Positions 3,515-61,786 are shown, counted from the first letter of the stretch. The stretch is 64,000 nt of DNA from Escherichia coli (GCF_001677475.2 NZ_CP015229.1); one strand, 5' to 3'. Translations and numbers: made by a program. Notes: generated by a model from the letters alone, not told the origin.

Positions 3515-6217
3515 TTATTGCTTAGTAAACGGCGCGAAGATTTCGCTAAATGCGTACTTCGGTGCCTGTTCTTTAGTCAGGCCGTGGAATTCCGGAGACA
3601 GGTTAGTGCCGCCTGGCAGGTCGCGCGCGATTGACCAGATACCAACCATACCGAGATTACGCTTCTGCGCATCCTGCATGACCAGACGAGCATCAGAGAG
3701 ATAGAACACCTCGCCCTGAACGTCGTTCACGCCAACCATCGGCGTGGTACCCATCATAGCGTCAATTTCTGCATCGCTCTTGTTGGGATGGAGGCCTTTC
3801 AATTGTGAATGCAGGTTGGCAATCGCAGACGTTGCACACTTACCGTGAATGTTCTGGCCTTCGGTATTTGCAGACTGACAAATCGCGTTACCGTAGTCCA
3901 TTGTCATCACGTTCACACCCGCCAGCTCAACACCTTTCGCTTTGGCATCGCTCAGGACATTCATCCCTTCCGGCGTCAGGCCAGTCGGCAGAATTGGCAA
4001 GGTGTACCAGATAGCAATATCTTTGCCTTCTGACTTCCATTTATCCTGCACTTTCTTCACAGCAAGGTTACGACGTTCAATAGATGCCTGATCCGCAACC
4101 CAGGTGCCTTCGATATCGAAGTCCAGGACTCTGAGGTTCAGGTTATCAACGATGTCATAATAATGCTGCATCAGATCGTCTACGTTCTTACAGGAAGCAG
4201 CCAGCGGAGCGTTGTTAGCACCACCGATAGACAGCATCACATCGCCGCCAGCCTCACGCAGGGCTTTGATTTTGCTGTACTGAGCGTAATTTTGCATACC
4301 ATAAGCGGTACCCCATGTCGGCAGACAGGTGTTCGCATCTTTACTCACCACAAACGCCAGCGTGAAGTGGTTGACGTTATGATTCTTAGCCAGCGCAGCC
4401 AGATCCGGGATCGTATTCAGCGTAAAGTCAACATACGGTGCATAAACGTGTTTCGGCCACGCTTTCTTCGGCGTACCTACACGTTCTTTGGTTCCGGTCC
4501 AGTCAACAAAAACACGCCACGGGTTGCTGTCAGAAGGAGAAACTTTCTGCACTTTACTCTGAGAAATGTAGTTCGCACCGTTAAAGCGAATCAGCGTATC
4601 GCTGGTATAAAGCGTTTCTGGATTAAACTGCGGCGCATTATTCAGCTCTTCGTTGCTATAGCTCTGAGCCTTACCTAACGGCTTCCACGGGCGGCTATTG
4701 CTACCGGTGGCGTTTTGGTTCGCAACCAGAGCAGGGTTGTCACTTTGCGTCCAGAACAGCGCTTCATAAGCCTGCCCATCAACAACAACGCGATCACCTT
4801 TCACGTACACAGTGGATGCGGACCATGCTTTCGCCGGTTCGTATTTCTTCCACGGGTTATCACCGCCTGGGACAAAGCCCCATGCGTCTTGATCGACAGA
4901 AGTTTTATAATGTGCATCGTTATAATCTACGATGCTGTCCGCGCTGTACGCTTTGCTGGCCTGGAAACCATCCGCAACAATGACGCCGCCGTTATCAATT
5001 TCACAGGTAGTCGGGTTACCGTACTGACTCAATTCCGCAGCGGTAGCTGTACGCACGAGACGCCATGGGTTATTGGAGTTTTCAGCGCTGGTACCCCGTG
5101 GGCAATCTTTAGACCCAACCCACCAGGCGTTCTTGTAAACATTACCATTGAAAATAACATGGTAAATTTCGCTACCTTCCTGGCCGCTCCACGCTTGCAA
5201 TGAGTAATCGTTACCGCTATCCGCTGGTGTTGATGGCTCGTTGTTATCCGGAGTTGGGGTAACCGGAGTTTCTGGTGTTTCCGGAGTTGGATCAACCGGA
5301 GTCACAGCACCGCCATTATTATCCGGCTTAACGGAACAGGAGCCAGGGTTACCATACTGACTGATTTCTGTTGCCGTTGCCGTGCGAACATAACGCCATG
5401 GGTTACTGGCATCGTTTTCTTTCGCATCGCCTGGGCAATTTGCCGCGCCTACCCACCAGGCGTTCTTATAAATGCCGCCGTTGTAGATAACGTACCATGT
5501 AGAAGAACCTTCCTGACCTTTCCAGGCTACGACAGCATAGTTGTCGTTTGACTTATCAGCTGGGGCTGGCTGAACATCAGGAGCCGGTTTAACGTCCGGT
5601 GCCGGTTTCACATCCGGTGCAGGCTGTGGTGCTGAAGTACAGGACTGTGGATTACTGGTTTGCGTGATTTCCGTTGCCGTAGCGGCACGAACATAACGCC
5701 ATGGGTTGCTGGCATCATTGCCTTTCGCATCACCCGGGCAGTTAGAAGAGGCTACCCACCAGGCATTTTTATATACCGCACCATTAAAGACGACATACCA
5801 GGTCTGACCGCCCTGCTGTTTATTCCAGGCAACTACAGAAGAATTAGACGGAACAGTGCCCTGTGCTGGTGTAGCCGAACCGCCATTAGCCGGCGTATTG
5901 GATGCAGGCGTATTTGAATTTGAAGAAGATGAGCTGCCGCTCTTTTCGCAGGAAAGTGTATTGCCATACTGACTAATTTCAGCAGCTGTCGCGGTACGCT
6001 TTAAACGCCACGGGTTAGTTGCATCATTTGCTTTCGCTTTTCCCGGGCAATTTGTAGAAGAAACCCACCAGGCATTTTCATAAATTTTGCCATCGAAAAT
6101 AACCTGATATTTATTACCACCTTGTTGGTTATTCCATGCTTCCATTGCCAATGCTGGCAGAGCGGAACACACCAGCCCCATACCAATCATAGATTTAGTA
6201 AATATATTTAATTTCAT
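3515..6217 (-). CDS. chiA: Periplasmic endochitinase with N-terminal signal peptide and tandem carbohydrate-binding modules
   Basis: 900-aa ORF; signal peptide; four ~65-aa tandem repeats (AWxxQQGG...NAWWV...NPWR...C) plus further chitin-binding-like modules; C-terminal catalytic domain with DFDIEG motif. Confidence 0.9.
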   Translation of the reverse strand: MKLNIFTKSMIGMGLVCSALPALAMEAWNNQQGGNKYQVIFDGKIYENAWWVSSTNCPGKAKANDATNPWRLKRTATAAEISQYGNTLSCEKSGSSSSSNSNTPASNTPANGGSATPAQGTVPSNSSVVAWNKQQGGQTWYVVFNGAVYKNAWWVASSNCPGDAKGNDASNPWRYVRAATATEITQTSNPQSCTSAPQPAPDVKPAPDVKPAPDVQPAPADKSNDNYAVVAWKGQEGSSTWYVIYNGGIYKNAWWVGAANCPGDAKENDASNPWRYVRTATATEISQYGNPGSCSVKPDNNGGAVTPVDPTPETPETPVTPTPDNNEPSTPADSGNDYSLQAWSGQEGSEIYHVIFNGNVYKNAWWVGSKDCPRGTSAENSNNPWRLVRTATAAELSQYGNPTTCEIDNGGVIVADGFQASKAYSADSIVDYNDAHYKTSVDQDAWGFVPGGDNPWKKYEPAKAWSASTVYVKGDRVVVDGQAYEALFWTQSDNPALVANQNATGSNSRPWKPLGKAQSYSNEELNNAPQFNPETLYTSDTLIRFNGANYISQSKVQKVSPSDSNPWRVFVDWTGTKERVGTPKKAWPKHVYAPYVDFTLNTIPDLAALAKNHNVNHFTLAFVVSKDANTCLPTWGTAYGMQNYAQYSKIKALREAGGDVMLSIGGANNAPLAASCKNVDDLMQHYYDIVDNLNLRVLDFDIEGTWVADQASIERRNLAVKKVQDKWKSEGKDIAIWYTLPILPTGLTPEGMNVLSDAKAKGVELAGVNVMTMDYGNAICQSANTEGQNIHGKCATSAIANLHSQLKGLHPNKSDAEIDAMMGTTPMVGVNDVQGEVFYLSDARLVMQDAQKRNLGMVGIWSIARDLPGGTNLSPEFHGLTKEQAPKYAFSEIFAPFTKQ

Positions 6218-6458
6218 TATAATCCCTTGTGACGTAAAAACTGCAAAACAGAAGTCCTACGCAGGAATTATTTACGTTTTACGAGAACCCTTCAATATGA
6301 ATTAAATTACGGCATTAAAAATAAGAAAAAAGCCTGACAAATGAAGCATTTTAAAAACAGAAACATTCACATTTAAAATATTAAATTGAATTGATATTTT
6401 AAATATGAATAATTTATTCGTTCTGACAGTACGAATAAATTATGCAGTCAACAAATGC

Positions 6459-6484
6459 AAAAAGGGCGCCGAAGCGCCCTTTTC
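6459..6484 (-). terminator. Rho-independent terminator downstream of tufA
   Basis: GC stem gggcgc/gcgccc with cgaa loop followed by T-run on minus strand, 25 bp past tufA stop. Confidence 0.75.
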
Positions 6485-6508
6485 AATTCAAAACTAATTA
6501 ACGTGTAA

Positions 6509-7750
<1,242 letters not shown>

Positions 7751-7763
7751 TTAACCCTGAGGC

Positions 7764-9890
<2,127 letters not shown>

Positions 9891-9974
9891 TTATCTTTTA
9901 GGCGTTCAATTTAAGTAGCCCAAAGCGGGCTGCTTACTGGAAGCGCCCGCCTGGTGACTAAAACTCCGAAGGGA

Positions 9975-10460
<486 letters not shown>

Positions 10461-10541
10461 TTAATTCAGGATTGTCCAAAACTCTACGAGTTTAGTTTGA
10501 CATTTAAGTTAAAACGTTTGGCCTTACTTAACGGAGAACCA

Positions 10542-11018
<477 letters not shown>

Positions 11019-17652: not shown

Positions 17653-19566
17653 ATGATTGTTTTCTCCTCGTTACAAATTCGTCGCGGCGTGCGCGTCCTG
17701 CTGGATAATGCCACCGCCACCATCAACCCCGGGCAGAAAGTCGGCCTGGTGGGTAAAAACGGCTGTGGTAAATCTACCCTGCTGGCATTGCTGAAAAATG
17801 AAATCAGCGCCGACGGCGGCAGCTACACCTTTCCGGGAAGCTGGCAACTGGCGTGGGTGAATCAGGAAACGCCGGCGTTACCGCAAGCGGCGCTGGAATA
17901 TGTCATTGACGGCGACCGTGAATATCGTCAACTGGAAGCGCAGCTGCACGACGCCAACGAACGTAACGACGGGCACGCCATTGCGACCATTCATGGCAAG
18001 CTGGATGCTATTGACGCATGGAGTATTCGCTCCCGTGCCGCCAGCCTGCTGCACGGCCTCGGTTTCAGCAATGAACAACTGGAGCGCCCGGTAAGTGATT
18101 TCTCCGGTGGCTGGCGTATGCGTCTTAACCTTGCCCAGGCGCTAATTTGCCGTTCAGACTTGCTGCTGCTCGACGAACCGACTAACCACCTCGATCTCGA
18201 TGCCGTTATCTGGCTGGAAAAATGGCTGAAGAGCTATCAGGGCACGCTGATCCTGATCTCTCACGACCGCGACTTCCTCGATCCGATCGTCGATAAAATT
18301 ATTCATATCGAACAACAAAGCATGTTCGAGTACACCGGCAACTACAGTTCGTTTGAAGTACAGCGCGCCACCCGTCTGGCGCAGCAACAAGCGATGTATG
18401 AAAGCCAGCAGGAACGCGTGGCACATCTGCAAAGTTATATCGATCGTTTCCGTGCCAAAGCCACCAAAGCGAAGCAGGCCCAGAGCCGCATTAAGATGCT
18501 GGAGCGTATGGAGCTGATTGCCCCCGCGCACGTCGACAATCCGTTCCGCTTTAGCTTCCGCGCGCCGGAAAGCCTGCCAAATCCGTTACTGAAGATGGAA
18601 AAGGTCAGCGCAGGCTATGGCGATCGCATTATTCTCGACTCGATTAAACTAAATCTGGTCCCCGGCTCGCGCATTGGTCTGCTAGGCCGCAACGGTGCGG
18701 GTAAATCGACATTAATCAAACTGTTAGCCGGTGAACTTGCGCCAGTCAGCGGTGAAATTGGTCTGGCGAAAGGGATCAAGCTCGGCTACTTCGCCCAGCA
18801 TCAACTGGAATACCTGCGCGCCGACGAATCGCCTATTCAACATCTGGCACGTTTAGCGCCGCAGGAGCTGGAGCAAAAACTGCGTGATTACCTCGGCGGC
18901 TTTGGTTTCCAGGGCGATAAAGTAACCGAAGAAACGCGCCGCTTTTCCGGTGGGGAAAAAGCCCGCCTGGTGCTGGCATTAATTGTCTGGCAGCGTCCGA
19001 ATCTGCTGCTGCTCGACGAACCGACTAACCACCTTGACCTCGACATGCGTCAGGCACTCACCGAAGCATTAATCGAGTTCGAAGGCGCGCTGGTTGTCGT
19101 CTCGCACGACCGTCATTTGCTGCGTTCCACCACTGACGATCTCTACCTGGTTCACGATCGTAAAGTCGAACCGTTCGACGGCGATCTGGAAGATTATCAA
19201 CAGTGGTTGAGCGACGTACAAAAGCAGGAAAACCAGACCGACGAAGCGCCAAAAGAGAACGCAAACAGCGCCCAGGCACGTAAAGATCAGAAGCGTCGGG
19301 AAGCGGAGCTGCGTGCGCAAACCCAACCGCTGCGTAAAGAGATCGCCCGTCTGGAAAAAGAGATGGAAAAGCTGAACGCACAGCTGGCGCAGGCGGAAGA
19401 GAAACTCGGCGACAGCGAACTGTATGACCAGAGCCGTAAAGCGGAGTTGACCGCCTGCCTGCAACAGCAAGCCAGCGCCAAATCCGGCCTGGAAGAGTGC
19501 GAAATGGCATGGCTGGAAGCCCAGGAGCAGCTTGAGCAGATGCTGCTGGAAGGCCAAAGCAACTGA
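17653..19566 (+). CDS. yheS: ABC-F family ATPase (translation-associated), two ABC cassettes
   Basis: 637-aa ORF with two Walker A motifs (GKNGCGKST, GRNGAGKST), two LSGG signatures and charged C-terminal coiled coil. Confidence 0.93.
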   Translation: MIVFSSLQIRRGVRVLLDNATATINPGQKVGLVGKNGCGKSTLLALLKNEISADGGSYTFPGSWQLAWVNQETPALPQAALEYVIDGDREYRQLEAQLHDANERNDGHAIATIHGKLDAIDAWSIRSRAASLLHGLGFSNEQLERPVSDFSGGWRMRLNLAQALICRSDLLLLDEPTNHLDLDAVIWLEKWLKSYQGTLILISHDRDFLDPIVDKIIHIEQQSMFEYTGNYSSFEVQRATRLAQQQAMYESQQERVAHLQSYIDRFRAKATKAKQAQSRIKMLERMELIAPAHVDNPFRFSFRAPESLPNPLLKMEKVSAGYGDRIILDSIKLNLVPGSRIGLLGRNGAGKSTLIKLLAGELAPVSGEIGLAKGIKLGYFAQHQLEYLRADESPIQHLARLAPQELEQKLRDYLGGFGFQGDKVTEETRRFSGGEKARLVLALIVWQRPNLLLLDEPTNHLDLDMRQALTEALIEFEGALVVVSHDRHLLRSTTDDLYLVHDRKVEPFDGDLEDYQQWLSDVQKQENQTDEAPKENANSAQARKDQKRREAELRAQTQPLRKEIARLEKEMEKLNAQLAQAEEKLGDSELYDQSRKAELTACLQQQASAKSGLEECEMAWLEAQEQLEQMLLEGQSN

Positions 19567-20588
19567 TGGCGCAGATAACGACGACCGAGGCCAATGAATT
19601 CAGCAGCAGCGCTGAATTCACCCCTATGCGCGGCTTTAGCAATTGTCATCTCCAAACCATGCTGCCGCGTCTGTTTCGTCGTCAGGTGAAATTCACCCCG
19701 TACTGGCAGCGACTGGAGTTGCCCGACGGCGATTTTGTCGATCTCGCGTGGAGTGAAGACCCTGCACAGGCGCGGCATAAACCGCGTTTAGTGGTGTTTC
19801 ACGGGCTGGAAGGCAGTCTCAATAGCCCTTACGCCCACGGTCTGGTTGAGGCGGCGCAAAAGCGCGGCTGGCTGGGCGTGGTGATGCATTTTCGCGGATG
19901 CAGCGGTGAACCAAACCGTATGCACCGCATTTACCATTCGGGCGAAACCGAAGACGCCAGCTGGTTTTTACGCTGGCTGCAACGCGAATTTGGTCATGCG
20001 CCAACGGCTGCCGTCGGCTATTCGCTCGGCGGTAATATGCTGGCCTGTTTGCTGGCAAAAGAAGGCAATGATCTCCCGGTTGATGCGGCGGTGATTGTCT
20101 CTGCGCCGTTTATGCTGGAAGCCTGTAGCTATCATATGGAAAAGGGCTTTTCCCGCGTTTATCAGCGTTACTTGCTGAACCTGTTAAAAGCCAATGCCGC
20201 GCGCAAGCTGGCAGCCTACCCCGGAACACTGCCGATTAATCTCGCGCAGTTAAAATCAGTACGTCGCATCCGTGAATTTGACGATCTAATCACCGCCAGA
20301 ATTCACGGCTACGCCGACGCTATCGACTATTATCGTCAGTGTAGCGCCATGCCGATGCTGAACCGGATCGCCAAACCGACGCTGATTATTCACGCCAAAG
20401 ACGATCCGTTTATGGATCATCAGGTGATCCCGAAACCGGAAAGTCTCCCCCCGCAGGTGGAGTATCAACTGACTGAACATGGCGGTCATGTTGGCTTTAT
20501 TGGCGGTACATTACTTCATCCGCAAATGTGGCTGGAGTCACGCATTCCTGACTGGTTAACAACGTATCTGGAGGCGAAATCATGTTGA
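19566..20588 (+). CDS. yheT: Predicted alpha/beta-fold hydrolase YheT
   Basis: 340-aa ORF; start overlaps yheS stop (ATGA); GYSLGG nucleophile-elbow motif. Confidence 0.85.
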
Positions 20589-20800
20589 TTCCGTGGCAAG
20601 ACCTCTCCCCCGAAACGCTGGAAAATTTAATTGAAAGCTTTGTGTTACGTGAAGGCACCGATTATGGTGAACATGAGCGTACACTTGAACAGAAAGTCGC
20701 CGACGTCAAACGCCAGCTACAGTGCGGAGAAGCGGTGCTGGTATGGTCGGAGCTGCACGAAACGGTCAATATTATGCCGCGCAGTCAGTTTCGCGAATAG
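20582..20800 (+). CDS. yheU: UPF0270 small protein YheU
   Basis: 72-aa ORF overlapping yheT stop by 7 nt. Confidence 0.8.
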
Positions 20801-20853
20801 CCTGCAACCGTCGGCGGACGAGATAATAATGATAGCTAAGTCATGGAGTTACT

Positions 20854-21723
20854 ATGTCTGCCAAACATCCGGTCATTGCGGTAACAGGATCCAGCGGCGC
20901 GGGGACCACCACCACCAGCCTCGCGTTTCGTAAAATATTCGCGCAGTTAAATCTGCATGCAGCTGAGGTGGAAGGCGACAGTTTTCACCGTTACACCCGC
21001 CCGGAAATGGACATGGCGATCCGCAAAGCGCGCGACGCCGGGCGGCATATCAGCTACTTCGGCCCCGAAGCGAACGACTTCGGCCTGCTGGAACAAACCT
21101 TCATTGAATACGGTCAGAGCGGCAAAGGGAAATCTCGCAAATATCTGCATACCTACGATGAAGCCGTACCGTGGAATCAGGTACCGGGGACATTCACCCC
21201 CTGGCAATCTTTACCGGAACCCACTGATGTACTGTTTTATGAAGGTTTACACGGCGGCGTAGTCACGCCACAGCATAACGTTGCGCAGCATGTGGACTTA
21301 CTGGTCGGCGTGGTGCCTATCGTTAACCTTGAGTGGATTCAAAAACTGATCCGCGACACCAGCGAGCGCGGGCACTCACGAGAAGCAGTGATGGACTCGG
21401 TAGTGCGTTCAATGGAAGACTATATCAACTACATCACGCCGCAGTTTTCCCGCACCCATCTTAACTTCCAGCGCGTTCCCACCGTCGACACCTCAAACCC
21501 GTTCGCGGCAAAAGGTATCCCGTCGCTGGATGAAAGCTTTGTGGTGATCCATTTTCGTAATCTGGAAGGGATCGATTTCCCCTGGCTGCTGGCGATGTTG
21601 CAAGGCTCATTCATTTCCCACATCAATACGTTAGTGGTGCCCGGCGGCAAAATGGGTCTGGCAATGGAATTAATTATGCTGCCGCTGGTGCAACGATTGA
21701 TGGAAGGAAAGAAAATCGAGTAA
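20854..21723 (+). CDS. prkB: Phosphoribulokinase homologue
   Basis: 289-aa ORF with N-terminal P-loop VIAVTGSSGAGTTT characteristic of PRK/uridine kinase family. Confidence 0.9.
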   Translation: MSAKHPVIAVTGSSGAGTTTTSLAFRKIFAQLNLHAAEVEGDSFHRYTRPEMDMAIRKARDAGRHISYFGPEANDFGLLEQTFIEYGQSGKGKSRKYLHTYDEAVPWNQVPGTFTPWQSLPEPTDVLFYEGLHGGVVTPQHNVAQHVDLLVGVVPIVNLEWIQKLIRDTSERGHSREAVMDSVVRSMEDYINYITPQFSRTHLNFQRVPTVDTSNPFAAKGIPSLDESFVVIHFRNLEGIDFPWLLAMLQGSFISHINTLVVPGGKMGLAMELIMLPLVQRLMEGKKIE

Positions 21724-21735
21724 CTCTGCTATTAC

Positions 21736-21757
21736 GCCGGATAAAATACTATCCGGC
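21736..21757. repeat. Perfect 8-bp inverted repeat (gccggata...tatccggc), REP-like hairpin between prkB and yhfA
   Basis: Read directly; sits between convergent gene ends. Confidence 0.5.
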
Positions 21758-21777
21758 TTCACAACGGGATAGTTAAA

Positions 21778-22182
21778 TCACGCGGCAACCACTTCATACG
21801 AGTGAGTAATATTCACCGCTTTTTCCAGCATCAACGCCACTGAACAATATTTCTCAGCAGAGAGATCAACCGCACGCGCAACCGCTGCGTCTTTCAGGTC
21901 GCGACCGGTGACGATAAAATGCAGATTAATGTGCGTAAACAGGCGTGGTGCATCTTCGCGGCGTTCAGAGGTCAATTTTACTTCACAATCGACCACATCC
22001 TGACGCCCTTTTTGCAAGATCGAAACCACATCGATGGCACTGCAACCACCCGCCGCCATCAACACCATTTCCATCGGACTTGGTGCTTTATCGCCTGAGT
22101 TGCCGTCCATTAAAATCTGGTGACCAGAGGCGGATTCGCCCAGAAAAGTTAACCCTTCGACCCACTTCACTCGCGCTTGCAT
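21778..22182 (-). CDS. yhfA: OsmC-family protein YhfA
   Basis: 134-aa ORF; OsmC/Ohr-like size and conserved Cys. Confidence 0.85.
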   Translation of the reverse strand: MQARVKWVEGLTFLGESASGHQILMDGNSGDKAPSPMEMVLMAAGGCSAIDVVSILQKGRQDVVDCEVKLTSERREDAPRLFTHINLHFIVTGRDLKDAAVARAVDLSAEKYCSVALMLEKAVNITHSYEVVAA

Positions 22183-22350
22183 TTTTGCTACTCCACTGCG
22201 TCAATTTTCCTGACAGAGTACGCGTACTAACCAAATCGCGCAACGGAAGGCGACCTGGGTCATGCTGAAGCGAGACACCAGGAGACACAAAGCGAAAGCT
22301 ATGCTAAAACAGTCAGGATGCTACAGTAATACATTGATGTACTGCATGTA

Positions 22351-22366
22351 TGCAAAGGACGTCACA
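22351..22366 (+). promoter_or_regulatory. Candidate CRP half-site-bearing operator in crp leader (TGCAA-N6-TCACA)
   Basis: Sequence tgcaaaggacgtcaca ~125 bp upstream of crp ATG; crp is known to be autoregulated via sites in this region. Confidence 0.45.
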
Positions 22367-22483
22367 TTACCGTGCAGTACAGTTGATAGCCCCTTCCCAG
22401 GTAGCGGGAAGCATATTTCGGCAATCCAGAGACAGCGGCGTTATCTGGCTCTGGAGAAAGCTTATAACAGAGGATAACCGCGC

Positions 22484-23116
22484 ATGGTGCTTGGCAAACC
22501 GCAAACAGACCCGACTCTCGAATGGTTCTTGTCTCATTGCCACATTCATAAGTACCCATCCAAGAGCACGCTTATTCACCAGGGTGAAAAAGCGGAAACG
22601 CTGTACTACATCGTTAAAGGCTCTGTGGCAGTGCTGATCAAAGACGAAGAGGGTAAAGAAATGATCCTCTCCTATCTGAATCAGGGTGATTTTATTGGCG
22701 AACTGGGCCTGTTTGAAGAGGGCCAGGAACGTAGCGCATGGGTACGTGCGAAAACCGCCTGTGAAGTGGCTGAAATTTCGTACAAAAAATTTCGCCAATT
22801 GATTCAGGTAAACCCGGACATTCTGATGCGTCTGTCTGCACAGATGGCGCGTCGTCTGCAAGTCACTTCAGAGAAAGTGGGCAACCTGGCGTTCCTCGAC
22901 GTGACGGGCCGCATTGCACAGACTCTGCTGAACCTGGCAAAACAACCAGATGCTATGACTCACCCGGACGGTATGCAAATCAAAATTACCCGTCAGGAAA
23001 TTGGTCAGATTGTCGGCTGTTCTCGTGAAACCGTGGGACGCATTCTGAAGATGCTGGAAGATCAGAACCTGATCTCTGCACACGGTAAAACCATCGTCGT
23101 TTACGGCACTCGTTAA
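22484..23116 (+). CDS. crp: cAMP receptor protein (catabolite activator protein)
   Basis: 210-aa [51 protein letters not shown]...[30 protein letters not shown]. Confidence 0.98.
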
Positions 23117-23154
23117 TCCCGTCGGAGTGGCGCGTTACCTGGTAGCGCGCCATT

Positions 23155-25257
23155 TTGTTTCCCCCGATGTGGCGCAGACTGATTTATCACCCCGATATCA
23201 ACTATGCACTGCGACAAACGCTGGTGCTATGTTTGCCCGTGGCCGTTGGGTTAATGCTTGGCGAATTGCGATTCGGTCTGCTCTTCTCCCTCGTTCCTGC
23301 CTGTTGCAATATTGCGGGCCTTGATACGCCTCATAAACGTTTTTTCAAACGCTTAATCATTGGTGCGTCGCTGTTTGCCACCTGTAGCTTACTGACACAG
23401 CTGCTACTGGCAAAAGATGTTCCCCTGCCCTTTTTGCTGACCGGATTAACGCTGGTACTTGGCGTCACTGCTGAGCTGGGGCCATTGCACGCAAAATTGC
23501 TTCCCGCATCCCTGCTCGCCGCCATTTTTACCCTCAGTCTGGCGGGATACATGCCGGTCTGGGAACCGTTGCTCATCTATGCGTTGGGCACTCTCTGGTA
23601 CGGATTGTTTAACTGGTTTTGGTTCTGGATCTGGCGCGAACAACCGCTGCGCGAGTCACTTAGCCTGCTGTACCGTGAACTGGCAGATTATTGTGAAGCC
23701 AAATACAGCCTGCTTACCCAGCACACCGACCCTGAAAAAGCGCTGCCGCCACTGCTGGTGCGCCAGCAAAAAGCGGTCGATCTAATTACCCAGTGCTATC
23801 AGCAAATGCATATGCTTTCCGCGCAAAATAATACTGACTACAAGCGGATGCTGCGTATTTTCCAGGAGGCGCTGGATTTACAGGAACATATTTCGGTCAG
23901 TTTGCATCAGCCGGAAGAGGTGCAAAAGCTGGTCGAGCGTAGCCATGCGGAAGAAGTTATCCGCTGGAATGCGCAAACCGTCGCCGCTCGCCTGCGCGTG
24001 CTGGCTGATGACATTCTTTACCATCGCCTGCCAACGCGTTTTACGATGGAAAAGCAAATTGGCGCGCTGGAAAAAATCGCCCGCCAGCATCCGGATAATC
24101 CGGTTGGGCAATTCTGCTACTGGCATTTCAGCCGCATCGCCCGCGTGCTGCGCACCCAAAAACCGCTCTATGCCCGTGACTTACTGGCCGATAAACAGCG
24201 GCGAATGCCATTACTTCCGGCGCTGAAAAGTTATCTGTCACTAAAGTCTCCGGCGCTACGCAATGCCGGACGACTCAGTGTGATGTTAAGCGTTGCCAGC
24301 CTGATGGGCACCGCGCTGCATCTGCCGAAGTCGTACTGGATCCTGATGACGGTATTGCTGGTGACGCAAAATGGCTATGGCGCAACCCGTCTGAGGATTG
24401 TGAATCGCTCCGTGGGAACCGTGGTCGGGTTAATCATTGCGGGCGTTGCCCTGCACTTTAAAATTCCCGAAGGTTACACCCTGACCTTGATGCTGATTAC
24501 CACCCTCGCCAGCTACCTGATATTGCGCAAAAACTACGGCTGGGCGACGGTCGGCTTTACCATTACCGCAGTGTATACCCTGCAACTGTTGTGGCTGAAC
24601 GGTGAGCAGTACATCCTTCCGCGTCTTATCGATACCATTATTGGCTGTTTAATTGCTTTCGGCGGTACCGTCTGGCTGTGGCCACAGTGGCAGAGCGGGT
24701 TATTGCGTAAAAACGCCCATGATGCTTTAGAAGCCTATCAGGAAGCGATTCGCTTGATTCTGAGCGAGGACCCGCAACCAACGCCACTGGCCTGGCAGAG
24801 AATGCGGGTAAATCAGGCGCATAACACTCTGTATAACTCATTGAATCAGGCGATGCAGGAACCGGCATTCAACAGCCATTATCTGGCAGATATGAAACTG
24901 TGGGTAACGCACAGTCAGTTTATTGTTGAACATATTAATGCCATGACCACGCTGGCACGGGAACACCGGGCATTGCCACCTGAACTGGCACAAGAGTATT
25001 TACAGTCTTGTGAAATCGCCATTCAGCGTTGTCAGCAGCGACTGGAGTATGACGAACCGGGGAGTTCTGGCGATGCCAATATCATGGATGCGCCGGAGAT
25101 GCAGCCGCACGAAGGCGCGGCAGGTACGCTGGAGCAGCATTTACAACGGGTTATTGGTCATCTGAACACCATGCACACCATTTCGTCGATGGCATGGCGG
25201 CAGCGACCGCATCACGGGATTTGGCTGAGTCGCAAGTTGCGGGATTCGAAGGCGTAA
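23155..25257 (+). CDS. yhfK: Large inner-membrane protein of unknown function (FUSC-like)
   Basis: 700-aa ORF with two hydrophobic multi-helix blocks separated by soluble domain. Confidence 0.85.
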   Translation: MFPPMWRRLIYHPDINYALRQTLVLCLPVAVGLMLGELRFGLLFSLVPACCNIAGLDTPHKRFFKRLIIGASLFATCSLLTQLLLAKDVPLPFLLTGLTLVLGVTAELGPLHAKLLPASLLAAIFTLSLAGYMPVWEPLLIYALGTLWYGLFNWFWFWIWREQPLRESLSLLYRELADYCEAKYSLLTQHTDPEKALPPLLVRQQKAVDLITQCYQQMHMLSAQNNTDYKRMLRIFQEALDLQEHISVSLHQPEEVQKLVERSHAEEVIRWNAQTVAARLRVLADDILYHRLPTRFTMEKQIGALEKIARQHPDNPVGQFCYWHFSRIARVLRTQKPLYARDLLADKQRRMPLLPALKSYLSLKSPALRNAGRLSVMLSVASLMGTALHLPKSYWILMTVLLVTQNGYGATRLRIVNRSVGTVVGLIIAGVALHFKIPEGYTLTLMLITTLASYLILRKNYGWATVGFTITAVYTLQLLWLNGEQYILPRLIDTIIGCLIAFGGTVWLWPQWQSGLLRKNAHDALEAYQEAIRLILSEDPQPTPLAWQRMRVNQAHNTLYNSLNQAMQEPAFNSHYLADMKLWVTHSQFIVEHINAMTTLAREHRALPPELAQEYLQSCEIAIQRCQQRLEYDEPGSSGDANIMDAPEMQPHEGAAGTLEQHLQRVIGHLNTMHTISSMAWRQRPHHGIWLSRKLRDSKA

Positions 25258-41159: not shown

Positions 41160-41212
41160 TAGGCCGGATAAGATGCGCCAGCATCGCATCCGGCGATGCT
41201 GGCGCGTTGAGG
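41160..41212. repeat. REP (repetitive extragenic palindromic) element
   Basis: gccggataagatgcgccagcatcgcatccggc-type imperfect palindrome between convergent frlR and yhfS. Confidence 0.7.
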
Positions 41213-48832: not shown

Positions 48833-49837
48833 TTACGGCTTCGCCACAAAACCAATCGCTTCGTACACCGCTTTTAGCGTACGGGAAGCGTGTGCGCTGG
48901 CTTTTTCCGCGCCATCTTTCATCACCTGTTGCAGGAAGGCTTCGTCATTGCGGAAACGGTGATAGCGTTCCTGCAATTCAGTCAGCATACCGGAAACGGC
49001 ATCAGCCACTTCGCCTTTCAGATGACCATACATCTTGCCTTCGAACTGTTTTTCCAGTTCCGGGATGCTCTGGCCCGTTACCGCAGAAAGGATATCCAGC
49101 AGGTTGGAAACGCCCGCTTTGTTCTGCACATCGTAGCGAACTACCGGCGGCTCGTCGGAGTCAGTGACCGCGCGTTTGATTTTCTTCACTACCGATTTCG
49201 GATCTTCCAGCAGGCCGATAACGTTATTGCGGTTATCGTCAGACTTGGACATCTTCTTGGTCGGCTCCAGCAGCGACATTACGCGCGCGCCAGATTTCGG
49301 AATAAACGGCTCCGGCACCTTAAAGATCTCACCATACAGCGCGTTGAAACGCTGAGCGATATCGCGGCTCAGTTCCAGGTGCTGTTTCTGGTCTTCACCC
49401 ACAGGTACCAGATTAGTTTGATACAGCAGGATGTCCGCAGCCATCAGCACCGGATAGTCAAACAGACCAGCGTTGATGTTCTCGGCATAACGCGCAGATT
49501 TATCTTTAAACTGCGTCATGCGGCTCAGTTCGCCGAAGTAGGTATAGCAGTTCAGTGCCCAGCCTAACTGCGCATGTTCCGGTACGTGGGACTGAACAAA
49601 AATGGTGCTTTTCTCAGGATCGATACCACAAGCCAGATACAAGGCCAGCGTATCCAGCGTCGCTTTACGCAGCTTCTGTGCATCCTGGCGCACGGTGATC
49701 GCGTGTTGGTCAACGATACAGTAAATGCAATGGTAGTCATCCTGCATGTTTACCCACTGACGCAGCGCACCCATGTAGTTACCAATGGTCAATTCACCTG
49801 AGGGCTGTGCGCCACTAAAAACGATGGGCTTAGTCAT
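48833..49837 (-). CDS. trpS: Tryptophan--tRNA ligase
   Basis: 334-aa class-I aa[30 protein letters not shown] with KMSKS motif. Confidence 0.97.
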
Positions 49838-50588
49838 TTTTCGATTCCTGATTTTCGCTATGCGGAAGCCCTAATGCGGGCAGAAGGTCATTTATAGACT
49901 GATAAATTACATCAGGCTGGCTGAGATCGATAGCCTCGCCGTAGTTATATCCGTAGGTTAAGCCAACGGATGGGCAACCTGCCGCTTTTGCCGCCTGAAT
50001 ATCATTGCGTGAGTCGCCGACAAACAGCATCTGTTGTGGGGCAATTCCCATCCGCTCAGCCACCAGTAACAGCGGGTCCGGATGCGGTTTTTTGTTTTGC
50101 ACATCATCACCGCCGATAACCACACTGAAGTATTTGGCGATATCTAAGGCTTCGAGCAGCGGCGCGACGAACGGCGTCGGTTTGTTGGTGACCAGGCCTA
50201 GCGGCAGGCCTTTAGCCTGCAACGCGCCCAACGTATCGGCAACGTGTGGGAACAAAAACGTCCCCTCTTCGGCAACCTCGCCATAGTAGCGATCGAACAG
50301 TTTACGCAGAATACGTATCTGTTCTTCTGCCGGAATGTCGTCATCAACGGGCGGTTTACCCATTGTTTTACGCTGAGTCGCACGTTCCTGACGCGCCCAG
50401 GTCAATGCGCGCTCCATCAGAACATCTGCGCCGTTACCAATCCAGGTAATAACGCGTTCTTCACCTGCGACGGGCAACTCCAGCGCATACAGCGCCATAT
50501 CTACCGCAGCAGCAAGACCAGGAGCACTGTCGACCAGCGTACCATCAAGATCAAAAGCGACGCCGCGAATATCTTCAAACTTATTCAT
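49830..50588 (-). CDS. gph: Phosphoglycolate phosphatase (HAD family)
   Basis: 252-aa ORF with HAD motif [10 protein letters not shown]. Confidence 0.93.
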
Positions 50589-51258
50589 GACTTACCTTTG
50601 CCAGTTCACTGCGCATTTCATCAATGACTTTTTTGTAGTCTGGCTGGTCGAAGATTGCCGAACCGGCGACGAACATATCCGCGCCCGCCGCAGCGATTTC
50701 GCCAATGTTGTTCACCTTCACACCACCGTCCACTTCCAGACGAATGTCAAAGCCAGACTCGTCGATACGACGACGTACTTCGCGCAGTTTATCCAGTGTT
50801 TGAGGAATGAAAGACTGACCGCCGAAACCAGGATTGACGGACATCAGCAGGATCACATCCAGCTTATCCATCACGTAATCCAGATAGCTCAGCGGTGTCG
50901 CCGGGTTAAATACCAGACCCGCTTTACAGCCATTTTCTTTAATCAGTTGCAGCGTGCGGTCAACATGCTCGGAGGCTTCTGGATGAAAGGTAATGATGCT
51001 GGCACCAGCGGCAGCGAAATCAGGCACAATGCGATCGACGGGTTTCACCATCAGATGTACGTCGATAGGGGCGGTAATGCCGTAGTTACGCAAGGATTTC
51101 AGCACCATTGGCCCAATCGTCAGATTGGGAACATAGTGGTTATCCATGACGTCAAAATGCACGACATCAGCGCCAGCTGCCAGGGCTTTTGCGGTATCTT
51201 CACCCAGGCGGGCAAAATCAGCCGACAGAATTGAGGGGGCAATCAAATACTGTTTCAT
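50581..51258 (-). CDS. rpe: Ribulose-phosphate 3-epimerase
   Basis: 225-aa [25 protein letters not shown]. Confidence 0.96.
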
Positions 51259-61671: not shown

Positions 61672-61786
61672 TTTATGCCGGATACGGGTGAACGCGTTAT
61701 CCGGCTAACAAAATCGTGAAAATTCAATATATTGCAGGAACCCCATAAGCCTGATAAGCGTTGTGCATCAGGCAAACTTCACGCAT
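61672..61786. repeat. REP-type palindromic units between mrcA and nudE
   Basis: tgccggatacgggtgaacgcgttatccggc and gcctgataagcgttgtgcatcaggc-type imperfect palindromes. Confidence 0.65.

What the first reader, a model, noticed from the sequence alone, without database searches (positions are those of the whole stretch)
20854..21723. Orphan phosphoribulokinase homologue (prkB) in a genome region with no Calvin-cycle partners
The ORF has a clear PRK/uridine-kinase type P-loop (GSSGAGTTT) and PRK-like length, but no RuBisCO or other CBB genes are nearby. The physiological substrate is therefore unclear (ribulose-5-P salvage, or an alternative sugar-phosphate). It is flanked by REP-like hairpin 21736-21757 and lies close upstream of crp on the same strand.
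Basis: partly seen in the sequence, partly recalled or inferred. Interest (0 to 1): 0.3.

Follow-up and report, generated by a model that had tools for sequence, protein, structure and literature searches.

The report
E. coli prkB, orphan phosphoribulokinase gene
This is the long-annotated E. coli gene prkB, a well-conserved Calvin-cycle-type sugar-phosphate kinase in a bacterium that has no RuBisCO; the gene is ordinary and already known, although what the enzyme does in the cell has never been worked out.

Summary
The ORF at 20854-21723 (+) is real. It is the E. coli core gene prkB, found as a single copy in 5425 of 5426 complete E. coli genomes and annotated "phosphoribulokinase". It aligns end to end (50% identity) with the solved Rhodobacter sphaeroides PRK (1A7J). 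The P-loop and every catalytic and ribulose-5-P-binding residue are invariant in 81 orthologues. No RuBisCO lies in the 64-kb window or within 10 kb of prkB in 80 other species. I found no evidence for control by CRP. The orphan gene forms a monophyletic clade across Enterobacterales, Aeromonas, Vibrionaceae and Alteromonadales with conserved gene order. It is under strong purifying selection (dN/dS 0.016-0.047), so it is not a relic. Two positions invariant in other bacterial-type PRKs are replaced in all 81 members (His69 to Tyr, Arg187 to Ser). Most likely it is a tightly restrained ribulose-5-P kinase, but a changed substrate is not excluded. Verdict: already known, low interest, with an open physiological question.

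The parts
20854..21723 (+). prkB coding sequence (289 aa plus stop), a bacterial-type (class I) phosphoribulokinase orthologue
   Evidence: ORF. 99.5% identical to annotated prkB; present in 5425 of 5426 complete E. coli genomes. PF00485 at E=1.8e-76. NCBIfam NF011997 at 523.9 bits against a cut-off of 362. PDB 1a7j_A at E=5.7e-94 over residues 1-288.
20887..20913 (+). Walker A / P-loop, GSSGAGTTT (residues 12-20)
   Evidence: Translation. G12, S13, S14, G15 and G17 are invariant in 81 orthologues.
20845..20848 (+). GGAG Shine-Dalgarno-like motif, 5 nt before the prkB ATG, inside the 53-bp yheU-prkB spacer
   Evidence: Read directly from the sequence. No sigma-70-like site in the spacer.
21736..21757 (.). 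REP-like hairpin between the convergent genes prkB and yhfA (8-bp stem, 6-nt loop). Probably a 3'-end or mRNA-stabilising structure for both transcripts.
   Evidence: Perfect inverted repeat. The 60-nt stretch containing it has fold z = -4.2 and -4.9. It shares its outer stem with the hairpins at 41163-41194 and 61677-61705. Hairpins of different sequence occupy the same position in E. albertii, Citrobacter and Pseudescherichia. It is not called a terminator because there is no T-run.
17653..19566 (+). yheS (ABCF ATPase), first gene of the same-strand run yheS-yheT-yheU-prkB
   Evidence: ORF, annotation. A preprint states that yheS, yheT and yheU are co-transcribed and lists prkB as a downstream co-cistronic gene (bioRxiv 10.1101/2023.06.11.543863).
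19566..20588 (+). yheT (alpha/beta hydrolase). Its start overlaps the yheS stop and its end overlaps the yheU start.
   Evidence: Found upstream of prkB in 53 of 81 loci.
20582..20800 (+). yheU (UPF0270), ending 53 bp before prkB
   Evidence: Found upstream of prkB in 51 of 81 loci.
21778..22182 (-). yhfA (OsmC-family protein), convergent with prkB.
   Evidence: Downstream and convergent in 58 of 81 loci, including Alteromonadales that have no crp nearby.
22484..23116 (+). crp, a separate transcription unit divergent from yhfA
   Evidence: Conserved near prkB in 57 of 81 loci.
22351..22366 (.). CRP-consensus-like site TGCAAAGGACGTCACA in the yhfA-crp intergenic region. It belongs to the crp/yhfA control region, not to prkB.
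   Evidence: Two mismatches to TGTGA-N6-TCACA. Assignment to the crp autoregulatory/divergent promoter region is from my own knowledge and was not tested.
50581..51258 (-). rpe (ribulose-phosphate 3-epimerase). It makes the presumed PrkB substrate and is the cbbE homologue. Not linked in an operon with prkB.
   Evidence: TIGR01163 at 319.6 bits against a cut-off of 212.6. Annotation.
49830..50588 (-). gph (phosphoglycolate phosphatase), the cbbZ homologue, in the dam-rpe-gph-trpS cluster
   Evidence: NF009694 at 556.7 bits against a cut-off of 415. Annotation.

Best explanation
The ORF is the E. coli core gene prkB. It encodes a bacterial-type (class I, R. sphaeroides-like) phosphoribulokinase with an intact active site.

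Most likely mechanism (inferred): an adenylate-kinase-like P-loop kinase that transfers the gamma-phosphate of ATP to C1 of D-ribulose 5-phosphate to give ribulose 1,5-bisphosphate.

E. coli has no RuBisCO, and heterologous Prk activity is toxic to it. The native enzyme is therefore probably held at low flux, by modest expression as the last gene after yheS-yheT-yheU and by allosteric restraint. It serves a non-Calvin role that is still unidentified.

Shown here: gene identity, active-site conservation, lack of a RuBisCO partner, conserved gene order and strong purifying selection. Inferred: the substrate, the low flux and the operon structure.
For: Identity: 99.5% to annotated prkB, one copy in 5425 of 5426 genomes. 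Annotated neighbourhood kefG, yheS-yheT-yheU-prkB, yhfA, crp.

Family: PF00485 at 1.8e-76. NF011997 at 523.9 bits against 362. 1A7J at 5.7e-94, collinear over 288 residues, 50% identity.

Active site: D42, H45, R49, E131, K165, R168, D169 and R173 (R. sphaeroides numbering) are conserved in E. coli and invariant in 81 of 81 orthologues from four orders; 108 of 289 positions are invariant. The roles of these residues come from the Miziorko-laboratory mutagenesis papers, whose titles are listed; the details are from my memory.

Selection: dN/dS is 0.016-0.047 against E. albertii, Citrobacter, Enterobacter, Pluralibacter and Serratia. That is lower than yheS, yheT, yheU, yhfA, yhfK and argD, and higher only than crp.

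No RuBisCO: none in the window or within 10 kb in 80 species.

Low flux: RuBP is described as not natively made by E. coli, and even weakly expressed heterologous Prk is toxic. An evolved hemiautotrophic strain does not grow when prkA is deleted from the plasmid, so chromosomal prkB does not replace it.

Transcription: the yheU-prkB gap is 53 bp with a GGAG and no promoter-like site. A preprint lists prkB as co-cistronic downstream of yheS.

Origin: GC content is typical of the surrounding DNA, so there is no sign of recent transfer.
Against: No biochemical or genetic study of E. coli PrkB was found, so the activity is inferred from homology only.

The NCBIfam 'equivalog' model is built on this same uncharacterised enteric group.

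No known E. coli enzyme consumes ribulose 1,5-bisphosphate, and Prk activity is toxic there. It is therefore hard to see why a true PRK is kept under such strong selection.

Native prkB did not substitute for prkA.

Two positions invariant in 11 of 11 other intact class I representatives are replaced in 81 of 81 clade members: His69 to Tyr and Arg187 to Ser. As I recall, Arg187 lies in the mobile lid and affects ATP binding.

The positions I recall as the NADH site (R234, R257) are His and His in E. coli.
Confidence: 0.6

Rival explanations
1. Changed specificity. The enteric/vibrio/alteromonad PrkB clade keeps the PRK fold and chemistry but acts in vivo on a different acceptor (another ketose or pentose phosphate) or with a different phosphoryl donor. 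Ribulose 1,5-bisphosphate is then not its physiological product.
For: There is no RuBisCO or other known RuBP consumer, and Prk activity is toxic in E. coli. Chromosomal prkB does not replace plasmid prkA. Two clade-wide fixed substitutions fall at positions invariant in all other intact class I representatives (H69Y, R187S). The conserved neighbours are a hydrolase (yheT), UPF0270 (yheU) and an OsmC protein (yhfA), not pentose-phosphate enzymes.
Against: All residues assigned to ribulose-5-P binding and catalysis are invariant in 81 of 81 orthologues. Identity to a proven PRK is 50% over the full length with one single-residue gap. The sister lineage P0126 is also an orphan but keeps His69 and Arg187, so losing RuBisCO does not by itself require these changes.
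Confidence: 0.27
2. Evolutionary relic. prkB (with rpe and gph) is a decaying leftover of an ancestral Calvin-cycle gene set and has no present function.
For: Three cbb-type homologues (prkB, rpe, gph) lie within 30 kb of each other in a genome without RuBisCO. A 53%-identical relative, P0128, sits directly beside a RuBisCO large-subunit gene and a LysR regulator.
Against: dN/dS is 0.016-0.047, lower than most neighbours. The active site is invariant across four orders. The gene is present in 5425 of 5426 E. coli genomes. Position and length are conserved in 80 species. rpe and gph have housekeeping roles of their own (established knowledge).
Confidence: 0.03
3. CRP-linked regulatory role. PrkB is functionally coupled to catabolite control, either as a CRP-regulon member or as the maker of a signal metabolite, and that is why it stays next to crp.
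For: prkB, yhfA and crp adjacency is kept in Enterobacterales, Aeromonas and Vibrionaceae (57 of 81 loci). In autotrophs RuBP is an effector of the LysR regulator CbbR (PMC4806589), so a signalling role for the product has a precedent. An antisense transcript 'prkB-as' is reported (PMC13170351). It could arise by read-through from yhfA across the hairpin, which has no T-run; that link is my inference.
Against: prkB and crp are separate transcription units with yhfA on the other strand between them. CRP-like sites occur at the chance rate and none lies in the yheU-prkB spacer. Most Alteromonadales keep prkB, often with yhfA, but have no crp within 10 kb, so the adjacency looks like inherited gene order.
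Confidence: 0.08

Closest known systems
Rhodobacter sphaeroides phosphoribulokinase (PDB 1A7J): class I / bacterial-type PRK, octameric, NADH-activated, AMP-inhibited
   Same: Length is 289 aa against 290 aa. The two are collinear over the full length at 50% identity, E=5.7e-94. The P-loop is the same, and so are D42, H45, R49, E131, K165, R168, D169 and R173.
   Different: Not encoded in a cbb operon, and no RuBisCO is present. Rs His69 is Tyr and Rs Arg187 is Ser throughout the clade. The positions I recall as the NADH site (R234, R257) are His and His in E. coli and variable within the clade. Activity, oligomeric state and allostery are untested.
PrkB orthologues of other RuBisCO-less Gammaproteobacteria (Salmonella/Citrobacter, Yersinia, Photorhabdus, Aeromonas, Vibrio, Photobacterium, Shewanella, Idiomarina, Colwellia, Pseudoalteromonas)
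   Same: Identity is 67-99%. They form a monophyletic clade, have the same length, and carry the same two diagnostic substitutions. Gene order is the same or partly the same (yheT-yheU-prkB, convergent yhfA, then crp). Photorhabdus and Photobacterium PRKs already appear in a published PRK tree (PMC5241800).
   Different: Nothing of substance. The window's gene is simply the E. coli member.
cbb-operon PRK (CbbP) of autotrophic proteobacteria, for example P0128, which sits next to a RuBisCO large-subunit gene and a LysR regulator
   Same: The family and active site are the same, and identity is 53%.
   Different: CbbP is co-located and co-regulated with RuBisCO. E. coli prkB is not, and it lies outside that group in the NJ tree.
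Uridine kinase (Udk), the other major branch of Pfam PF00485
   Same: Same P-loop kinase superfamily and same Pfam family.
   Different: The uridine-kinase models score only 27.8 bits (cut-off 180) and 22.8 bits (cut-off 220.3). This is not a Udk.

Membership tests
Phosphoribulokinase, bacterial type (class I; EC 2.7.1.19; Pfam PF00485, NCBIfam NF011997) | Full-length sequence match above the curated family cut-offs | tested here: met
   PF00485 at 256.8 bits against 22. NF011997 at 523.9 bits against 362. 1A7J at E=5.7e-94 over residues 1-288.
Phosphoribulokinase, bacterial type (class I; EC 2.7.1.19; Pfam PF00485, NCBIfam NF011997) | Walker A P-loop near the N-terminus | tested here: met
   GSSGAGTTT at residues 12-20. 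The Gly and Ser core is invariant in 81 orthologues.
Phosphoribulokinase, bacterial type (class I; EC 2.7.1.19; Pfam PF00485, NCBIfam NF011997) | Catalytic acid/base and Walker-B residues (Rs D42, E131, K165, D169) | tested here: met
   Present in E. coli as D42, E130, K164 and D168. Conserved in 81 of 81 orthologues.
Phosphoribulokinase, bacterial type (class I; EC 2.7.1.19; Pfam PF00485, NCBIfam NF011997) | Ribulose-5-phosphate-binding basic residues (Rs H45, R49, R168, R173) | tested here: met
   Present in E. coli as H45, R49, R167 and R172. Conserved in 81 of 81 orthologues.
Phosphoribulokinase, bacterial type (class I; EC 2.7.1.19; Pfam PF00485, NCBIfam NF011997) | Lid-domain arginine Rs R187 (Arg in all other intact class I representatives examined) | tested here: not met
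   Ser186 in E. coli and in 81 of 81 clade members. Arg in 11 of 11 other representatives. The adjacent R185 (Rs R186) is kept in 80 of 81. I treat this as a subgroup difference, not as exclusion from the family.
Phosphoribulokinase, bacterial type (class I; EC 2.7.1.19; Pfam PF00485, NCBIfam NF011997) | ATP-dependent conversion of ribulose 5-phosphate to ribulose 1,5-bisphosphate | not testable with these tools
   No enzymology for E. coli PrkB was found in the held literature.
Phosphoribulokinase, bacterial type (class I; EC 2.7.1.19; Pfam PF00485, NCBIfam NF011997) | [quoted passage not shown] | not testable with these tools
   The subunit size fits (289 aa). The residues I recall as the NADH site (R234, R257) are His in E. 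coli. Allostery and oligomeric state are unknown.
Calvin-Benson-Bassham cycle gene set | RuBisCO large subunit encoded with or near prk | tested here: not met
   The validated RbcL probe gives no hit better than E=1.5 in the window and none in 80 loci with 10-kb flanks. The active-site motif has 0 hits.
Uridine kinase (Udk) | Score above the Udk equivalog cut-offs | tested here: not met
   NF004018 at 27.8 bits against 180. TIGR00235 at 22.8 bits against 220.3.
REP (repetitive extragenic palindromic) element, for the hairpin 21736-21757 | Imperfect palindrome of about 30-35 nt with the conserved GCCGGAT...ATCCGGC outer stem, in an extragenic position | tested here: inconclusive
   The outer stem is identical to two REP-type hairpins in the window (3 matches, 0 expected), and the position is extragenic. 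However, it is only 22 nt long and lacks the inner stem. Citrobacter carries a longer version at the same place.
Intrinsic (rho-independent) terminator, for the hairpin 21736-21757 | GC-rich stem followed by a run of T | tested here: not met
   Not reported by the terminator scan. The hairpin is followed by TTCACAAC on the + strand and GTAATAGC on the - strand.

The most novel reading that the evidence does not exclude
The PrkB clade of RuBisCO-less Gammaproteobacteria may no longer be a Calvin-type phosphoribulokinase in vivo. The clade is under strong purifying selection, keeps its position beside yheT-yheU and yhfA, and carries two fixed substitutions (His69 to Tyr, Arg187 to Ser) at positions invariant in other bacterial PRKs. 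It may have acquired a different acceptor or donor, or it may make small regulated amounts of ribulose 1,5-bisphosphate for an undiscovered consumer or sensor. Either would reveal a piece of enterobacterial central metabolism that is currently missing from the maps.
Probability: 0.3. Interest if true: 0.55.

Novelty: already known. Interest (0 to 1): 0.2.

Why it matters
As a finding it adds nothing new: prkB has been annotated in E. coli since the genome was sequenced, and Prk without RuBisCO is common among bacteria.

The residual value is a genuine unanswered question about a model organism. Engineers treat E. coli as unable to make RuBP and find heterologous Prk toxic. Yet E. coli and its relatives keep a PRK with an intact active site under stronger constraint than most of its neighbours.

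Resolving this would fill a gap in the E. coli 'y-ome'. It could also matter for synthetic-autotrophy strains, where native PrkB is usually ignored.

Tried and rejected
One search was badly designed and returned only noise. The Miziorko mutagenesis papers are not held, so the residue roles rest on their titles and my memory.
- The 50%-identity representative library gave mostly fragments. Only about a dozen intact full-length sequences were usable.
- Context look-ups of representatives: P0124 sits on a 1.5-kb contig and was uninformative.
- CRP-site scan: 2 sites with at most 2 mismatches in 5.1 kb against about 2.1 expected. Rejected as evidence for CRP control of prkB.
- Promoter and terminator scans: only one promoter-like site (20556-20583, at the yheT/yheU junction) against 2.7 expected, and no terminator call at the hairpin. 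Neither is informative.
- Rfam at the permissive threshold over 19000-23500 found nothing.
- Base composition shows no horizontal-transfer signal.
- A search for a conserved enzyme partner that could consume RuBP, by clustering all ORFs within 5 kb of prkB in 81 loci, found only yhfA, crp, yheT, yheU, argD and shadow ORFs.
- I did not run structure prediction. 50% identity to a solved structure makes the fold certain, and the tool returns no coordinates with which to measure the Tyr68-Ser186 distance.

Full report
**What is there**

The window is Escherichia coli chromosome. The ORF at 20854..21723 (+) starts with ATG and encodes 289 aa. Its DNA is 99.5% identical to the gene annotated 'prkB: phosphoribulokinase'. 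The gene is present once in 5425 of 5426 complete E. coli genomes.

The annotated neighbourhood in E. coli LF82 matches the window gene for gene: kefB-kefG (-), yheS-yheT-yheU-prkB (+), yhfA (-), crp-yhfK (+), argD (-).

The protein matches:
- Pfam PF00485 (PRK/uridine kinase) at E=1.8e-76;
- the NCBIfam phosphoribulokinase model NF011997 at 523.9 bits against a cut-off of 362, while the uridine-kinase models fall far below their cut-offs;
- the solved R. sphaeroides PRK (1A7J) at E=5.7e-94, collinear over residues 1-288 and 50% identical with one single-residue gap.

**Checking the rest of the observation**

A RuBisCO large-subunit probe, written from memory, was first shown to be RuBisCO: it matches spinach 1aa1_L at 1118 bits. 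It finds nothing in the 64-kb window better than E=1.5, and the active-site motif is absent.

The hairpin at 21736-21757 is real. It has a perfect 8-bp stem and a 6-nt loop. The 60-nt intergenic stretch that contains it folds better than all 200 shuffles on both strands. 'REP-like' is a fair description. The pattern GCCGGAT...ATCCGGC occurs three times in the window against none expected, and the other two copies (41163-41194 and 61677-61705) are longer REP-type palindromes. Relatives carry hairpins of different sequence at the same spot. There is no T-run, so it is not a textbook terminator.

- yhfA (21778..22182, minus strand, OsmC family) lies between prkB and crp and converges on prkB.
- prkB follows yheU after only 53 bp, with a GGAG and no promoter-like site in the gap. 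A preprint lists prkB as co-cistronic downstream of yheS-yheT-yheU.
- rpe and gph lie 29 kb downstream in the same window. These are the housekeeping homologues of the Calvin-operon genes cbbE and cbbZ. They are not operon partners of prkB.

**Is the enzyme intact?**

The residues that define PRK catalysis and ribulose-5-P binding in the R. sphaeroides enzyme are D42, H45, R49, E131, K165, R168, D169 and R173. Their roles come from the Miziorko-laboratory papers whose titles appear; the details are from my memory. All are present in E. coli.

One scan of 100,044 species genomes returned the 80 best loci. They come from Enterobacterales, Aeromonas, Vibrionaceae and many Alteromonadales, and are 67-99% identical. 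In the 81 orthologues (those 80 plus E. coli LF82), every one of these residues is invariant, and 108 of 289 positions are invariant overall.

dN/dS for prkB against five Enterobacterales genera, from E. albertii to Serratia, is 0.016-0.047. That is lower than yheS, yheT, yheU, yhfA, yhfK and argD, and higher only than crp. Base composition is ordinary. The gene is therefore neither a relic nor a recent import.

**Context across species**

None of the 80 loci has RuBisCO within 10 kb. The order yheT-yheU-prkB, convergent yhfA, then crp holds throughout Enterobacterales, Aeromonas and Vibrionaceae. Many Alteromonadales keep the convergent prkB/yhfA pair but have no crp nearby. In Colwellia and Thalassotalea, prkB follows the rpoA-rplQ ribosomal cluster.

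Clustering all ORFs within 5 kb of prkB revealed no other conserved partner, and in particular no candidate consumer of RuBP.

CRP-like sites in 17.4-22.5 kb occur at the chance rate. One is inside yheT and the other is in the yhfA-crp control region. The adjacency to crp therefore looks like inherited gene order rather than a regulatory link.

**How this clade differs from other bacterial PRKs**

The 81 orthologues are monophyletic in a neighbour-joining tree. Their sister is a marine orphan lineage, P0126, which has no RuBisCO on its contigs. Another relative at 53% identity, P0128, sits directly beside a RuBisCO large-subunit gene and a LysR regulator.

I compared the clade with 11 intact representatives of other class I PRKs. 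Exactly two positions are fixed differently: Rs His69 is Tyr in 81 of 81, and Rs Arg187 is Ser in 81 of 81, against His and Arg in 11 of 11. Arg187 belongs to the 'invariant arginines of the mobile lid' (title). I recall that mutating it raises the ATP requirement. P0126 keeps both residues, so these changes are not simply what happens when RuBisCO is lost.

**How it most likely works**

The best-supported reading is that PrkB is a genuine ATP:ribulose-5-phosphate 1-phosphotransferase held at low flux.

The tension is real. Bacterial PRKs are NADH-activated and AMP-inhibited. RuBP is described as not natively made by E. coli, and heterologous Prk is toxic even at weak expression. In evolved hemiautotrophic E. 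coli, deleting prkA from the plasmid abolishes growth although chromosomal prkB is present.

These facts fit either a tightly restrained PRK (my estimate 0.6) or a changed substrate or donor (0.27). The relic idea (0.03) is contradicted by the selection data. The CRP-coupling idea (0.08) lacks support.

**Novelty**

The gene, its annotation and its orphan status are all known. Published PRK trees already include Photorhabdus and Photobacterium sequences. One study remarks that putative PRKs occur in heterotrophic prokaryotes. A survey found Prk in 4,284 genomes but Prk together with Rubisco in only 1,490.

I found no study of the E. coli enzyme itself. The clade-wide H69Y and R187S substitutions and the strength of selection are small additions that sharpen an open 'y-ome' question. 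They do not change the classification: already known, low interest.

Noticed in passing
window 20854-21723 (codons 68 and 186: 21055-21057 and 21409-21411): Two positions invariant in 11 of 11 other intact bacterial-type PRK representatives are replaced in all 81 members of the E. coli-type clade: Rs His69 to Tyr68 and Rs Arg187 to Ser186. The sister orphan lineage P0126 keeps His and Arg.
   Followed up: partly
window 49830-51258 (-): gph and rpe, homologues of the Calvin-operon genes cbbZ and cbbE, sit in the dam-rpe-gph-trpS cluster 29 kb from prkB. Three cbb-type homologues therefore share this window although RuBisCO is absent.
   Followed up: partly
window 21778-22182 (-): yhfA (OsmC family) converges on prkB and is its most widely conserved neighbour (58 of 81 loci), even where crp is not adjacent. 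No functional link is known.
   Followed up: partly
window 41163-41194 and 61677-61705: Two REP-type palindromes (GCCGGATAAGATGCGCCAGCATCGCATCCGGC and GCCGGATACGGGTGAACGCGTTATCCGGC) share the outer stem of the short prkB/yhfA hairpin.
   Followed up: no
window 22351-22366: A CRP-consensus-like site, TGCAAAGGACGTCACA, lies in the yhfA-crp intergenic region. From memory, this corresponds to the known CRP site downstream of the crp start that drives the divergent transcript towards yhfA. Read-through past the hairpin, which has no T-run, could produce the reported 'prkB-as' antisense RNA (PMC13170351).
   Followed up: no
window 41000-64000: This 23-kb stretch is at best 97.6% identical to any of 5426 complete E. 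coli genomes, whereas prkB reaches 99.5%. The strain's yhf/frl-to-igaA region is comparatively divergent or mosaic.
   Followed up: no
L067 and L061 (Colwellia, Thalassotalea), about 4800-10900: In these Alteromonadales prkB lies immediately after the rpsM-rpsK-rpsD-rpoA-rplQ ribosomal-protein cluster instead of after yheT-yheU.
   Followed up: no
L084 and L085 (marine metagenome contigs): P0126 represents a second orphan PRK lineage, 53% identical to PrkB. It lies between leuS and a uvrD-type helicase gene with no RuBisCO on the contig, and it is sister to the E. coli-type clade in the NJ tree.
   Followed up: partly
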